Shown one piece after another: positions 1 through 3,398 of a DNA stretch of 53,280 nucleotides. Within the stretch, counting starts at the first letter, position 1; each line of letters opens with the position of its first letter. The translations under genes and the position numbers were made by a program. This stretch comes from Escherichia coli (GTDB lineage Bacteria > Pseudomonadota > Gammaproteobacteria > Enterobacterales > Enterobacteriaceae). The notes beneath the pieces were generated by a model, which saw only the letters and a list, made by a program, of their open reading frames with translations, had not been told where the DNA came from and searched no databases. The stretch is from NCBI RefSeq assembly GCF_003334355.1, contig NZ_QOWP01000028.1, one strand, 5' to 3'.

Positions 1-77
1 CTTTTCAAAAGGGTATTTTGGCTTTGACATATTAGGGGCTATTCCATTTCATCGTCCAACAAAATGGGTGCAGTACA
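1..77 (-). mobile_element. Terminal inverted repeat of an IS3-family insertion sequence (IS150-like), truncated by the window edge
   Basis: Read on the minus strand from position 77 the sequence begins 5'-TGTACTGCACCCATTTTGTTGGACGATGAAATGG, with the TG/CA terminal dinucleotide typical of IS3-family ends. It matches my recollection of the IS150 end, and IS150 is known to sit next to hokA in K-12. Not verified by alignment. Confidence 0.4.
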
Positions 78-109
78 TACTCGTTGGAAATCAACACAGG
101 GGGCTGGGA

Positions 110-262
110 ATGCCGCAGAAATATAGATTACTTTCTTTAATAGTGATTTGTTTCACGCTTTTATTTTTCACCTGGATGATAAGAGATTCACTGTGTGAAT
201 TGCATATTAAACAGGAGAGTTATGAGCTGGCGGCGTTTTTAGCCTGCAAATTGAAAGAGTAA
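110..262 (+). CDS. hokA: Hok-family type I toxin HokA (50 aa small membrane peptide)
   Basis: ORF translation MPQKYRLLSLIVICFTLLFFTWMIRDSLCELHIKQESYELAAFLACKLKE is a Hok/Gef family peptide with a single TM helix and conserved Cys. ATG at 110 verified. A perfect 8-bp stem hairpin at 271-290 follows the stop. Confidence 0.9.
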   Translation: MPQKYRLLSLIVICFTLLFFTWMIRDSLCELHIKQESYELAAFLACKLKE

Positions 263-383
263 GAGTCTTCGGCGGGAAATTATTCCCGCCTTACTTACGG
301 CGTTGCGCATTCTCATTGCACCCACATTTATTCTTCACAAAAATAATAATAGATTTTATTACGCGATCGATTATTTATTTCCT

Positions 384-420
384 GAAAAACAAAAAAAATC
401 CCCGCCAAATGGCAGGGATC
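384..420 (-). terminator. Rho-independent terminator of cspA
   Basis: On the minus strand, GC-rich hairpin (gatccctgcc attt ggcggggat) followed by a run of 8 U, immediately downstream of the cspA stop. Confidence 0.7.
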
Positions 421-446
421 TTAGATTCTGTGCTTTTAAGCAGAGA

Positions 447-659
447 TTACAGGCTGGTTACGTTACCAGCTGCCGGGCCTTTAGCGCCGCTTTCGATGGT
501 GAAGGACACTTTCTGACCTTCGTCCAGAGATTTGTAACCATCGTTCTGGATAGCAGAGAAGTGTACGAACACATCTTTAGAGCCATCGTCAGGAGTGATG
601 AAGCCGAAGCCTTTGTCAGCGTTGAACCATTTTACGATACCAGTCATTTTACCGGACAT
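447..659 (-). CDS. cspA: Major cold shock protein CspA
   Basis: 70-aa translation [70 protein letters not shown] matches CspA, including the RNP1/RNP2 motifs. Confidence 0.98.
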
Positions 660-819
660 AGTGTATTACCTTTAATAATTAAGTGTGCCTTTCGGCGATA
701 TGGCGTGCTTTACAGATTTTGAAGCGTTAAAGGAATGTGCACTACGAGGGGTATCAACGATAACTCTTGAAGGGACTTGCCTTACTACACTGCTTTAATG
801 GTCTGTACGTCAAACCGTT
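660..819 (-). promoter_or_regulatory. Long cspA 5' UTR (about 160 nt, cold-regulated leader)
   Basis: Reverse complement of 660-819 reads ACGGUUUGACGUACAGACCAUUAAAGCAG...UAAUACACU-AUG, matching the known long cspA leader that mediates cold induction. Confidence 0.8.
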
Positions 820-826
820 GATGTGC

Positions 827-855
827 ATTAAGCCACGCATTGGCGGGTGATTCAA
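827..855 (-). promoter_or_regulatory. cspA promoter (-10 CTTAAT, 17-bp spacer, -35 TTGAAT) with AT-rich UP-like element just upstream
   Basis: Hexamers read on the minus strand at 827-832 and 850-855; AT-rich tract at 856-880; position fits a transcript start near 819. Confidence 0.55.
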
Positions 856-939
856 CAATTATTTTTCATATTTATGATTAATCGGTTGGAAAACGGTCCT
901 GTCATCAGGACCGTAAACAGCAATAAAGTGGATAAAAGT

Positions 940-1230
940 CTATTCCATCAACTGCTTACTTAATGCCGGGTTGGCTTGAATCAAACGCATCAATTTTAGT
1001 TCGGCACTTGAAGGCTTCACGCGTCTGGATTCCCATTCCTTTACCATGGCGACTGATACGCCCAAAACCCGGGCGAAATCATCGATTTTTAACCCTGTCC
1101 CTTTTCGTAACTGCTCAATTTCGGTACAGGACGTTGTTCTGTGCGTCAGGGTAATTTTCTGCGTTTCATCTTTAAAAACAATCTGTTCCAGGCTGCTCAA
1201 CAGCTCATGCATTGGATCTTTATATTCCAT
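940..1230 (-). CDS. yiaG: XRE-family HTH transcriptional regulator YiaG
   Basis: 96-aa ORF with a C-terminal helix-turn-helix (…DFARVLGVSVAMVKEWESRRVKP…); conserved position beside cspA. Confidence 0.9.
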   Translation of the reverse strand: MEYKDPMHELLSSLEQIVFKDETQKITLTHRTTSCTEIEQLRKGTGLKIDDFARVLGVSVAMVKEWESRRVKPSSAELKLMRLIQANPALSKQLME

Positions 1231-1663
1231 TGAAAACTCCTCAAATCACACTGCGGGATCGTGAATTGCATCGAAGCTCATTAAGAATAGTCGGGAAAAG
1301 CAGACACAGCGGGGTGAAGTCAGGGCATGCTCTGGCTATGATTCGATTCAGCCTGTCATTTAGCGTGACTTATAGCCACCTAACGATCTGATAAATGCCG
1401 ATATATCTCTTACCACTCCTGTTTTGTAAAGATTTCGAAAATCTAACCTTCTGCGAAGGCGTAAATCTCTGGCTACAAAAAAGGCAACGGCACTATCATT
1501 TTTTAACAATGAAACAACAAATTAACCTTGTTTCATTTTCTCCATGATTTTACCAGGAAGATTACGTAGAAAGGGTATCCTGCAAGCCTGTCCTGGACTA
1601 TCCTTGTCACGTCAGACACGCGTGTGTCGTTGTGCGCTTTTTTTGGGTGAAAGGAGTAAGAAA

Positions 1664-2374
1664 ATGGCGACAGGAAAGTCCTGCTCTCGCTGGTTTGCGC
1701 CTCTTGCGGCGTTATTAATGGTAGTTAGCCTGAGTGGGTGTTTTGATAAAGAAGGCGATCAGCGTAAAGCGTTTATCGACTTCCTGCAGAATACAGTGAT
1801 GCGTAGCGGTGAACGTCTACCAACCCTGACTGCCGATCAGAAAAAACAGTTTGGTCCTTTTGTCTCTGATTACGCGATTCTGTATGGTTATTCTCAGCAG
1901 GTGAATCAGGCGATGGATTCCGGTCTGCGCCCGGTTGTAGACAGCGTTAACGCAATTCGCGTACCGCAGGATTACGTTACGCAAAGCGGTCCGCTGCGTG
2001 AAATGAACGGTTCGCTGGGTGTGCTGGCGCAACAACTGCAAAATGCGAAGTTGCAGGCCGATGCTGCGCACTCTGCGCTAAAACAGAGCGATGATTTGAA
2101 ACCGGTCTTTGATCAGGCATTCACCAAAGTGGTAACGACGCCAGCTGATGCATTGCAACCGTTGATTCCGGCGGCACAAACTTTCACGCAACAACTGGTG
2201 ATGGTTGGAGACTACATTGCTCAGCAAGGTACTCAGGTGAGCTTTGTCGCAAATGGCATCCAGTTCCCGACTTCACAGCAGGCAAGTGAATATAACAAAC
2301 TGATTGCGCCATTACCGGCACAGCATCAGGCGTTTAATCAGGCCTGGACTACAGCAGTTACTGCAACCCAATAA
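1664..2374 (+). CDS. yiaF: Lipoprotein YiaF (DUF3053)
   Basis: Start set at the ATG at 1664, preceded by AAGGAG (1651-1656); product MATGKSCSRWFAPLAALLMVVSLSGCF… has a lipobox (LSGC). The longer track ORF starting at 1544 lacks a ribosome-binding site. Confidence 0.88.
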   Translation: MATGKSCSRWFAPLAALLMVVSLSGCFDKEGDQRKAFIDFLQNTVMRSGERLPTLTADQKKQFGPFVSDYAILYGYSQQVNQAMDSGLRPVVDSVNAIRVPQDYVTQSGPLREMNGSLGVLAQQLQNAKLQADAAHSALKQSDDLKPVFDQAFTKVVTTPADALQPLIPAAQTFTQQLVMVGDYIAQQGTQVSFVANGIQFPTSQQASEYNKLIAPLPAQHQAFNQAWTTAVTATQ

Positions 2375-2380
2375 AGAGTA

Positions 2381-2405
2381 AAAGCCCGAGCGATTATCGG
2401 GCTTT
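2381..2405. terminator. Hairpin between convergent yiaF and ghrB (probable bidirectional terminator)
   Basis: aaagcccg-(loop)-cgggcttt inverted repeat with flanking A/T runs on both strands. Confidence 0.5.
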
Positions 2406-2423
2406 ACTCTACGCAGTCGCGGC

Positions 2424-3398
2424 TTAGTCCGCGACGTGCGGATTCACACAGTTCTTCTCAACCTTTCCTTGTAACGCATCAATCAAATTATCCACGGCAC
2501 AGGCGGCCATGCCATAACGCGTCTCATGGGTGGCAGATCCAATATGCGGTACTGCGACGACGTTGGCCATTGAGAGCAACGGCGAATCTACGGACAGTGG
2601 CTCTTGTTCGAAGACATCCAGCCCGGCAGCGTGAATTTCGCCTTTCTGCAATGCTGCGATCAGTGCATTTTCGTCAACCACCGGGCCACGTCCGGCATTA
2701 ATGAAAATGGCGGAGGATTTCATTTTGGCGAATTGTTCTGCGCCAAACAGATGATGCGTCTCATCAGTTAACGGCAGGATCAGGCAAACGAAATCTGACT
2801 CTTGTAACAGAGTATCCAAATCGCAGTAGCGGGCGTTGAAGCGTTCTTCTGCTTCTTTATGGTGGCGGCGCGCGTTATAGAGGATGGGCATGTTGAAGCC
2901 AAAGTGCGCACGTTGTGCCAGCGCCATGCCGATCCGTCCCATCCCGACAATGCCCAGTGTTTTATGGTGAACGTCAGTGCCGTACCAGTCCGGGCCTATG
3001 CTCGCGGTCCATTCGCCTGCTTTTACCCGTTCTGCTACCTCCACAACCCGACGAGCGGTAGACAACACCAGCGCCATCAGCGTATCGGCGACGGTTTCTG
3101 TTAATACGGTTGGCGTGTGCATCAGCAGAATTTTTCGGGCGGTAAGCGCATCGACATCAAAATTGTCATAGCCGACGGAGATCGTTGATGTGGCACGCAG
3201 TTTCGGCATTTTTTCCAGCAATGCGGCATCAACATTCTCGTTTGAACCCAGTAAACCTTCAGCTTCGGCAAAAATTGCTGCATTTTGTTCGACGGTTTGT
3301 GGGCTGAGGTTTGCCACCTGGTGAACGGTGAAATGCTCTTGCAGGCGTTGCAGTAAATCATCAGGTAAGGCTTTGTAGAGGATAACGGACGGCTTCAT
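2424..3398 (-). CDS. ghrB: Glyoxylate/hydroxypyruvate reductase B (2-ketoaldonate reductase; D-isomer 2-hydroxyacid dehydrogenase family)
   Basis: 324-aa product from MKPSVILYK… with NAD-binding motif [16 protein letters not shown] and catalytic His region; start chosen as the third in-frame Met to match the family N-terminus. Confidence 0.93.

What the first reader, a model, noticed from the sequence alone, without database searches (positions are those of the whole stretch)
110..300. hokA toxin ORF is intact but appears orphaned from its antitoxin and leader
The 50-codon Hok-family frame is complete with a strong 3' hairpin (271-290, perfect 8-bp stem), yet only 109 bp precede it in the window, and the first 77 of these look like IS sequence. 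A complete hok/sok locus needs roughly 200 bp of upstream leader (promoter, mok frame, sok gene). An intact toxin frame without a visible antitoxin is either silent through loss of its promoter or potentially expressed from IS read-out. The in-frame upstream extension to position 68 in the ORF track crosses the putative IS junction and is likely an artefact rather than a Mok frame.
Basis: partly seen in the sequence, partly recalled or inferred. Interest (0 to 1): 0.35.

Follow-up and report, generated by a model that had tools for sequence, protein, structure and literature searches.

The report
IS150-disrupted hokA toxin locus
This is the well-known E. coli K-12-type hokA toxin gene, cut off from its promoter, leader and antisense antitoxin by an IS150 insertion plus a small deletion; it is an ordinary, already annotated gene remnant.

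Summary
Window 110-262 is an intact 50-codon hokA gene (NCBIfam HokA equivalog, Pfam Hok/Gef). It is followed by a perfect 8-bp hairpin at 271-290 and preceded by 32 bp of native leader (78-109). Positions 1-77 are the left end of IS150.

About two thirds of complete E. coli genomes have an uninterrupted locus. There, a ~150-nt leader (Rfam sok model, 120 bits) carries the 5' tac element, the SokA target and gene, and the mokA start codon. In this window only the last ~33 nt of that leader remain.

In genomes with the same junction (one identical to window 1-700, plus MG1655), the rest lies 1,443 bp away, beyond IS150. A further 38-39 bp are deleted: the mokA ATG, the sokA -10 box and the SokA 5' end.

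MG1655 RefSeq already annotates this arrangement: hokA, mokA pseudogene, IS150 and sokA pseudogene. The literature attributes inactivation of the K-12 hok loci to IS elements.

One correction: 78-109 is a genuine in-frame mokA remnant; only 68-77 of the upstream extension is spurious. The toxin is most likely silent. It has no promoter and no mok-coupled translation, and its ribosome-binding site is predicted to be sequestered. Low interest; already known.

The parts
1..77 (-). Left end of IS150: the terminal inverted repeat ends at 77, and the insJ start codon is at 30-28 on the minus strand (MSKPKYPFEK...). The window begins inside the element.
   Evidence: (IS150 copies on plasmids match 1-77/78 at 100%), and 14 (MG1655 IS150 3720633-3722075, 1,443 bp).
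78..109 (+). Remnant of the hokA leader. It holds the last 10.7 codons of the mokA-specific frame, in frame with hokA, and the hokA Shine-Dalgarno region (AGGGGG; AGGAGG in MG1655). It corresponds to about positions 125-154 of the 157-position Rfam sok/hok-leader model.
   Evidence: (mokA pseudogene b4647 = window 78-262).
89..94 (-). Inferred -35 box (TTGATT) of the sokA promoter, now orphaned. In intact loci the matching -10 (TAACCT, 17-nt spacer) and the SokA 5' end lie in the 38-39 bp that are deleted here.
   Evidence: Inference from the alignment with the R1-type locus and the sequences. The simple promoter scan did not call this site.
110..262 (+). hokA, an intact 50-codon Hok/Gef-family membrane toxin gene. 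It carries the two cysteines, C29 and C46, that the literature describes as forming a disulfide essential for HokB toxicity.
   Evidence: annotated as hokA; cysteines per bioRxiv 10.1101/2025.08.07.668861.
99..247 (+). Predicted long-range helix (99-116 pairs with 230-247) that sequesters the hokA Shine-Dalgarno sequence and AUG. It is predicted in both the intact mRNA and the truncated window RNA.
   Evidence: prediction only; z = -6.3 for 78-292.
271..290 (+). 3' stem-loop with a perfect 8-bp stem. It is the positional homologue of the R1 hok hairpin GGCGGGCGCAGGCCCGCC, the last stem-loop of the processed (truncated) hok mRNA.
   Evidence: The R1 role (protection from 3' exonucleases) is from PMC9841398.
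307..323 (+). fbi (fold-back inhibition) element. Positions 311-323 pair with the 5' tac (GGGUGC.UGAGA) of the intact hokA mRNA, and 307-310 pair with the mokA AUG. In this window it has lost its partner.
   Evidence: intact mRNA MFE -136.7 kcal/mol, z = -8.2, 5'-3' end pairing.
239..310 (-). ysaE, an annotated 23-codon small ORF. It is antisense to the hokA 3' end, the hairpin and part of the fbi, and lies downstream of the cspA terminator.
   Evidence: b4793; ribosome-profiling ranking in PMC8921622; ysaE-hokA listed as a convergent excludon in PMC12288877.

Best explanation
Window 1-330 is the toxin-proximal half of a chromosomal hokA/mokA/sokA type I toxin-antitoxin locus. It was broken by an IS150 insertion into the sokA/mokA region, together with loss of 38-39 bp.

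What remains in the window (shown):
- the last 32 nt of the leader
- the intact hokA ORF
- the internal helix predicted to mask the hokA ribosome-binding site
- the 3' stem-loop
- the fbi element

What is missing (shown by comparison with uninterrupted loci):
- Displaced 1.44 kb away, beyond IS150: the hokA promoter region, the 5' tac element, and the SokA target/terminator.
- Deleted outright: the mokA Shine-Dalgarno sequence and ATG, the sokA -10 box, and the first ~22-25 nt of SokA.

Consequence (inferred): hokA is silent at three levels.
1. Its own promoter no longer feeds it, and no sigma-70-like promoter is seen reading out of IS150.
2. In the hok family, Hok translation requires translation of mok through the hok initiation region, and mokA has no start codon here.
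3. The hokA SD and AUG are predicted to be sequestered in a 17-bp long-range helix that lies wholly within the retained sequence.

The antitoxin is also destroyed, but it is not needed because the toxin is not made. This is the state long described for E. coli K-12.
For: - Toxin identity.
- IS150 boundary at 77/78.
- Upstream arrangement in genomes sharing the junction: full IS150, then the leader remnant, then glyS.
- Intact allele L002: the Rfam sok model RF01794 matches 1884-2035 over its full length, at 120 bits, ending at the hokA ATG. It also matches an R1-type plasmid locus at 87 bits. It finds nothing in the window.
- Alignment A1 shows the window starting at the TAC of 'CCTCTTACTCG', and 39 nt of the intact locus present on neither side of the IS.
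- mokA is 70 codons and in frame with hokA in the intact allele, as in the R1-type locus.
- The intact mRNA folds with tac/fbi end-pairing, z = -8.2. The SD/AUG helix persists in window-only RNAs.
- No promoter-like site was found in window 1-460. In L001 2400-3320, the only promoter-like site is on the strand reading away from hokA.
- MG1655 RefSeq annotates hokA, mokA (pseudogene), IS150 and sokA (pseudogene) in exactly this arrangement.
- Literature: the five K-12 hok loci are inactivated by IS elements, point mutations or rearrangements (Pedersen & Gerdes 1999, as cited in PMC2654758 and PMC7232551). In R1 hok, mutations of the promoter, the mok start codon or the 3' stem-loop abolish toxicity (PMC9841398).
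- Population: the junction is present in about 1,480 of 5,426 complete E. coli genomes, and the locus is uninterrupted in about 3,680.
Against: - No expression data were available for this strain.
- The promoter scan is a crude consensus match and could miss weak or non-sigma-70 promoters.
- MG1655, which has the same allele, has ysaE-hokA listed as a convergent excludon in at least 50% of 58 stranded RNA-seq samples (PMC12288877). This suggests some sense-strand coverage over hokA.
- The sequence upstream of window position 1 is not visible and is inferred from genomes sharing the junction.
- The dependence of hokA translation on mokA is extrapolated from R1 hok/mok, not shown for hokA.
Confidence: 0.92

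Rival explanations
1. The orphaned hokA is still expressed. Transcription reads out of IS150, or starts at a cryptic promoter, and HokA is translated from its own SD (AGGGGG here, AGGAGG in K-12). It would be held in check by something other than SokA, for example antisense transcription from cspA read-through/ysaE across the hokA 3' end.
For: The ORF, its SD and its 3' stem-loop are intact. The HokA CDS amplified from MG1655 is toxic when overexpressed (bioRxiv 10.1101/2025.08.07.668861). ysaE-hokA is listed as a convergent excludon in MG1655 RNA-seq, and ysaE shows strong ribosome-profiling signal. Antisense RNA over 239-310 therefore exists, and some sense coverage is likely.
Against: No promoter-like site reads toward hokA in window 1-460 or in L001 2400-3320, which covers the last ~680 bp of IS150 and the hokA region. 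The mokA start is deleted, and in R1 Hok is not made without mok translation. The hokA SD and AUG are predicted to be buried in a 17-bp helix even in a read-through RNA. About 1,480 genomes carry the allele without an antitoxin, which is easier to explain if the toxin is silent. An intact 153-nt ORF is expected by neutrality after a recent insertion.
Confidence: 0.06
2. The locus is complete within the window: a sok gene and a mok frame lie in positions 1-109, and positions 1-77 are not IS-derived.
For: An in-frame ORF extends upstream to GTG 68.
Against: Positions 1-77 are 100% IS150. The Rfam sok model gives no hit, while it matches the intact allele over its full length. The intact mokA ATG lies in the deleted 39 nt.
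Confidence: 0.01
3. The ORF and hairpin are chance features, not a real gene.
For: None beyond the small size of the ORF.
Against: The ORF scores above the curated cut-off of the HokA equivalog model and matches Pfam Hok/Gef at E = 1.6e-21. It is conserved and annotated at the same glyS-cspA position in at least 5,398 of 5,426 genomes. The hairpin aligns with the R1 hok 3' hairpin.
Confidence: 0.01

Closest known systems
E. coli K-12 MG1655 hokA/mokA'/IS150/sokA' locus (b4455, b4647, insJK b3557-b3558, b4614)
   Same: Identical architecture and identical IS150 junction. The same 38-39 bp are missing, with the same neighbours (cspA, ysaE, yiaG on one side; glyS beyond the IS).
   Different: The window is not MG1655 itself. 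There are four substitutions and two 1-nt indels in the first 900 nt. They include G instead of A at window 101, which changes the hokA SD from AGGAGG to AGGGGG. The window is 100% identical over 1-700 to strain OW1E2.
Uninterrupted chromosomal hokA/sokA loci (e.g. strain OkiPb01705, L002; about 3,680 complete E. coli genomes)
   Same: Same hokA protein (WP_001135732.1), the same 3' region, and 100% identity from window 78 onward.
   Different: These loci have the full ~150-nt leader: tac, SokA target and gene, and the mokA start. Their mRNA is predicted to close by tac/fbi pairing. The window lacks all of these. Per the literature, even an intact hokA locus (E. coli C) did not mediate post-segregational killing.
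hok/sok of plasmid R1 (the type I toxin-antitoxin paradigm)
   Same: Same element order: tac, sokT/sok, an in-frame 70-codon mok, hok, 3' stem-loop, fbi. The same Rfam leader model matches both.
   Different: R1 is a complete, functional plasmid-stabilisation module. The window copy is chromosomal, and its 5' third is displaced or deleted by IS150.
Other IS-inactivated hok loci of E. coli K-12 (attributed to Pedersen & Gerdes 1999)
   Same: Inactivation of a hok locus by an IS element close to, but not inside, the toxin frame. From my own recollection of that paper, these are hokC and hokE with IS186.
   Different: Different loci. The identity of the IS and the side of insertion in those loci rest on my recollection of the paper and were not checked here.

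Membership tests
Hok/Gef toxin family (Pfam PF01848; NCBIfam NF007290 HokA equivalog) | Protein of about 50 aa matching the family profile above the curated threshold | tested here: met
   NF007290: 129.7 bits against a cut-off of 89, covering 1-50 of 50. PF01848: E = 1.6e-21.
Hok/Gef toxin family (Pfam PF01848; NCBIfam NF007290 HokA equivalog) | Hydrophobic N-terminal helix and the conserved cysteine pair (C29/C46 in HokB numbering) | tested here: met
   The sequence LLSLIVICFTLLFFTW, with C29 and C46, can be read directly. The role of the cysteines is from the literature.
Hok/Gef toxin family (Pfam PF01848; NCBIfam NF007290 HokA equivalog) | Toxicity on expression | not testable with these tools
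   The literature reports that the HokA CDS from MG1655 is toxic on overexpression. This was not tested for this allele.
Complete hok/mok/sok type I toxin-antitoxin locus | hok mRNA 5' leader with the tac element, contiguous with hok | tested here: not met
   The Rfam sok/leader model gives no hit in the window, and only about 33 of its 157 positions remain. In genomes sharing the junction, tac lies beyond IS150.
Complete hok/mok/sok type I toxin-antitoxin locus | Antisense Sok RNA gene with its promoter | tested here: not met
   Only the inferred -35 box remains (89-94, minus strand). The -10 box and the SokA 5' end are deleted. The 3' 35 nt are annotated as the sokA pseudogene beyond IS150 in MG1655.
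Complete hok/mok/sok type I toxin-antitoxin locus | mok frame with its own start codon, read through the hok initiation region | tested here: not met
   The mokA ATG (L002 1973) lies in the deleted 39 nt. Only the remnant 78-109 is retained.
Complete hok/mok/sok type I toxin-antitoxin locus | 3' stem-loop and 3' fbi element complementary to tac | tested here: met
   Hairpin at 271-290. Positions 311-323 pair with nt 1-12 of the intact mRNA.
Complete hok/mok/sok type I toxin-antitoxin locus | Post-segregational killing, or SokA-dependent repression | not testable with these tools
   Requires experiments. The literature reports no PSK even for the intact hokA locus of E. coli C.
IS150 (IS3 family) insertion | Terminal sequence identical to IS150, and a full 1,443-bp element with a frameshifted transposase | tested here: met
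   Window 1-77 is 100% identical to IS150 ends. The full element is seen in L001 and MG1655. Only 77 nt are visible in the window itself.
IS150 (IS3 family) insertion | Short (3-bp) target-site duplication flanking a simple insertion | tested here: not met
   In the K-12-type allele the flanks are CAAAGT(T) on one side and TACTCG on the other, with 38-39 bp of the target missing and no duplication. This indicates an insertion plus an adjacent deletion or rearrangement. The separate E94-type allele does show an AAG duplication.

The most novel reading that the evidence does not exclude
The orphaned but intact hokA may not be a dead remnant. It could be transcribed at a low level from IS150 read-out, and it may now be controlled by convergent antisense transcription from the very strong cspA promoter (read-through past the cspA terminator, carrying ysaE). 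That would act as a surrogate, condition-dependent antitoxin, for example one responsive to cold shock. It would also help explain why the ORF is kept intact in about 1,480 sequenced genomes.
Probability: 0.04. Interest if true: 0.45.

Novelty: already known. Interest (0 to 1): 0.07.

Why it matters
It matters little. The finding re-discovers the annotated K-12-type hokA::IS150 arrangement, one of the inactivated chromosomal hok loci attributed to Pedersen & Gerdes (1999). Its use here is as a correct annotation: the toxin gene should be labelled as an intact ORF within a disrupted locus, with mokA and sokA as pseudogenes. It does not indicate an unguarded toxin. The population figures and the second IS150 allele are minor additions: about 27% of complete E. 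coli genomes carry this allele, about 2% carry a second IS150 allele 2 bp away, and about 68% are uninterrupted.

Tried and rejected
1. **IS150 end as a tac mimic.** The fold of a hypothetical read-through RNA (window 1-326) pairs the IS150 terminus UGGGUGCAGU (65-74) with the fbi AUUGCACCCA (315-324), a 10-bp helix. The duplex energy of -16.8 kcal/mol is reached by 35% of 2,000 dinucleotide shuffles of the IS end. Rejected as chance.

2. **Hairpin 271-290 as an intrinsic terminator.** The scan did not call it, because no T-run follows. It is better explained as the homologue of the R1 hok 3' stem-loop.

3. **Promoter scans for IS read-out.** Nothing reads toward hokA. The scan also fails to call the inferred native sokA promoter in the intact allele, so its sensitivity is limited.

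4. **Primary literature.** Pedersen & Gerdes 1999 (PubMed 10361310) and a type I toxin review that I tried by a recalled id (PMC2593563) are not held. Secondary citations were used instead. Keyword searches for hokA+IS150 and for hokA+sokA returned mostly irrelevant papers.

5. **Another sok-like RNA in the window.** None was found. The only other type I antitoxin is rdlD at 20339-20404.

Full report
**Observation**

- ATG at 110 opens a 50-codon frame ending at TAA 260-262.
- Its product scores 129.7 bits against the NCBIfam HokA equivalog NF007290 (cut-off 89). It scores E = 1.6e-21 against Pfam PF01848 Hok/Gef.
- The hairpin GGCGGGAA/AUUA/UUCCCGCC pairs 271-278 with 283-290, with no mismatches.
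- Only 109 nt precede the ORF. A 700-nt query splits cleanly at 77/78. Copies of IS150 on plasmids match 1-77/78 at 100%. Thousands of chromosomes match only from 78 onward.
- On the minus strand, 30-1 encodes the start of the IS150 insJ product (annotation).

**What lies upstream**

The window begins inside the IS, so I used genomes that share the junction.
- Strain OW1E2 (L001) is 100% identical to window 1-700. MG1655 (L004) has the same junction.
- Both show a full 1,443-bp IS150, then about 250 bp of non-coding sequence, then the 3' end of glyS.
- MG1655 RefSeq annotates the arrangement explicitly:
  - hokA b4455
  - mokA pseudogene b4647 (= window 78-262)
  - IS150 with insJ and insK
  - a 35-nt sokA pseudogene b4614 on the glyS side
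- The window is not MG1655 itself. It differs at window 101 (G versus A, which changes the hokA SD from AGGAGG to AGGGGG), and at 325, 390 and 852. There are also two 1-nt indels near 389-391.

**The uninterrupted locus**

- Strain OkiPb01705 (L002) is 100% identical to the window from 78 onward and has no IS.
- There the Rfam family RF01794 (sok/hok leader, 157 positions) matches L002 1884-2035 over its full length, at 120 bits, ending on the hokA ATG. The same model matches an R1-type plasmid hok/sok locus (L005) at 87 bits.
- It finds nothing in window 1-3000 at E <= 1, and nothing in the whole window at gathering score. Only about 33 of its 157 positions survive, at window 78-112.
- In L002 an ATG at 1973 opens a 70-codon frame that is in frame with hokA: MPEHHKVSLLLVGNQHRGLG followed by HokA. 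The R1-type locus has the equivalent in-frame mok.

**Anatomy of the break**

- Alignment A1 and the raw junctions give three sequences:
  - Uninterrupted: ...ATCAAAGTGTGGCTACCCTATGCCTGAACACCATAAGGTTAGCCTCTTACTCGTTGG...
  - glyS-side flank of the IS: ends ...ATCAAAGT(T)
  - hokA-side flank, in the window: begins TACTCGTTGG
- Thus 38-39 nt are on neither side, and there is no target-site duplication.
- The lost segment contains the mokA ATG.
- By alignment with the R1-type locus, it also contains the sokA -10 box (TAACCT; R1-type TATCCT) and the first ~22-25 nt of SokA. That part is inference.
- The inferred sokA -35 box (TTGATT) survives at window 94-89 on the minus strand, and now faces into IS150.

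**RNA structure**

- The intact 364-nt hokA mRNA (L002 1884-2247) is predicted to close on itself:
  - nt 1-6 and 8-12 (GGGUGC.UGAGA, tac) pair with window-equivalent 311-323 (fbi)
  - the mokA AUG pairs with 307-310
  - MFE is -136.7 kcal/mol, with z = -8.2 against shuffles
- This is the end-pairing design described for R1 hok (PMC9841398).
- The 271-290 hairpin aligns with the R1 hairpin GGCGGGCGCAGGCCCGCC. In R1 the last stem-loop of the processed mRNA protects it from 3' exonucleases.
- The hairpin is not followed by a T-run and is not called as a terminator.
- A 17-bp helix (99-116 with 230-247) covers the hokA SD and AUG. It lies entirely within the retained sequence and persists in folds of window-only RNAs.

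**Mechanism**

Shown: the toxin ORF, its 3' stem-loop and its fbi are intact. The promoter region, tac and SokA target are displaced by 1.44 kb. The mokA start, the sokA -10 box and the SokA 5' end are gone.

Inferred: hokA is silent, for three reasons.
- No sigma-70-like site reads toward hokA in window 1-460. In L001 2400-3320, the only site found is on the opposite strand.
- In R1, mutations of the hok promoter or the mok start codon, and stop codons in mok upstream of hok, all abolish toxicity.
- The hokA initiation region is predicted to be base-paired.

The literature states that the five K-12 hok loci are inactivated by IS elements, point mutations or rearrangements (Pedersen & Gerdes 1999, as cited in PMC2654758 and PMC7232551). 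The HokA CDS from MG1655 is still toxic when overexpressed. An intact hokA locus from E. coli C did not mediate post-segregational killing (bioRxiv 10.1101/2025.08.07.668861).

**Caveat and rival**

- ysaE, a 23-codon ORF annotated antisense at 239-310, has strong ribosome-profiling support.
- ysaE-hokA is listed as a convergent excludon in at least 50% of 58 MG1655 RNA-seq samples. Some transcription over hokA on both strands is therefore likely.
- Low-level read-through from IS150 is not excluded. I give about 6% to a still-expressed toxin.

**Population**

- A junction-spanning query covers at least 80% in 1,579 of 5,426 complete E. coli genomes.
- The uninterrupted mok/sok segment is covered at least 80% in 3,777.
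- A second allele (strain E94, L003) has IS150 in the same orientation, 2 bp away. It has a clean AAG duplication and no deletion. It occurs in 96 genomes, including O25b:H4-ST131 strains.
- This second allele is counted in both of the figures above: H31, and NZ_AP022064.1 in both.
- The approximate totals are therefore 1,480 K-12-type, 96 E94-type and 3,680 uninterrupted.

**Rejected idea**

The IS150 terminus can form a 10-bp helix with the fbi in a read-through RNA. However, 35% of dinucleotide shuffles do as well, so this is chance.

**Verdict**

The feature is already known and annotated. Interest is low.

Noticed in passing
window 239-310 (-): ysaE is an annotated 23-codon small ORF (MRNAVSKAGIISRRRLLLFQFAG). 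It runs antisense to the hokA 3' end, the 3' hairpin and part of the fbi, just downstream of the cspA terminator. It has no NCBIfam match. It ranks high in ribosome-profiling benchmarks, and ysaE-hokA is listed as a convergent excludon in MG1655 RNA-seq.
   Followed up: partly
L003 (E. coli E94) 1085-2560; equivalent to window junction 77/78: There is a second, distinct IS150 allele in the same locus. It has the same orientation, and its glyS-side junction is 2 bp from the K-12-type one. It has a clean 3-bp AAG target duplication and no deletion, so mokA, hokA and the sokA promoter stay contiguous while the hokA promoter and tac are cut off. It is present in 96 complete genomes, including O25b:H4-ST131 strains. 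This suggests recurrent IS150 hits in sokA.
   Followed up: partly
window 101: The window and the uninterrupted allele have G here (hokA SD AGGGGG), while MG1655 has A (AGGAGG, a stronger consensus SD). The effect on translation or on the 99-116/230-247 helix was not examined.
   Followed up: no
window 65-74 and 315-324: A hypothetical read-through RNA would have 10-bp complementarity between the IS150 terminal repeat (UGGGUGCAGU) and the hokA fbi (AUUGCACCCA), mimicking tac/fbi pairing. The duplex energy is at chance level: 35% of shuffles do as well.
   Followed up: yes
window 20339-20404 (-): An rdlD antitoxin RNA (Rfam RF01813, 87 bits) marks a separate ldr/rdl type I toxin-antitoxin locus in the same window. 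Other Rfam hits are naRNA4 at 12186-12265 (-), a tRNA at 12016-12089 (+) and ES036 at 14501-14543 (-).
   Followed up: no
window 447-659 (-) and 392-819 (-): The neighbouring gene is cspA, with its full thermoregulator mRNA (Rfam RF01766, 500.8 bits). Many RefSeq genomes label this same gene 'cspE', which is an annotation inconsistency.
   Followed up: no
plasmid collection hits H72-H74: Several records of 4.8-4.9 Mb in the plasmid collection are evidently chromosomes. 'Plasmid' hits to hokA at about 97% identity there are therefore not evidence of a plasmid-borne hokA. The nearest real plasmid relatives are about 78% identical (Klebsiella CP052389.1, E. coli CP088471.1).
   Followed up: no
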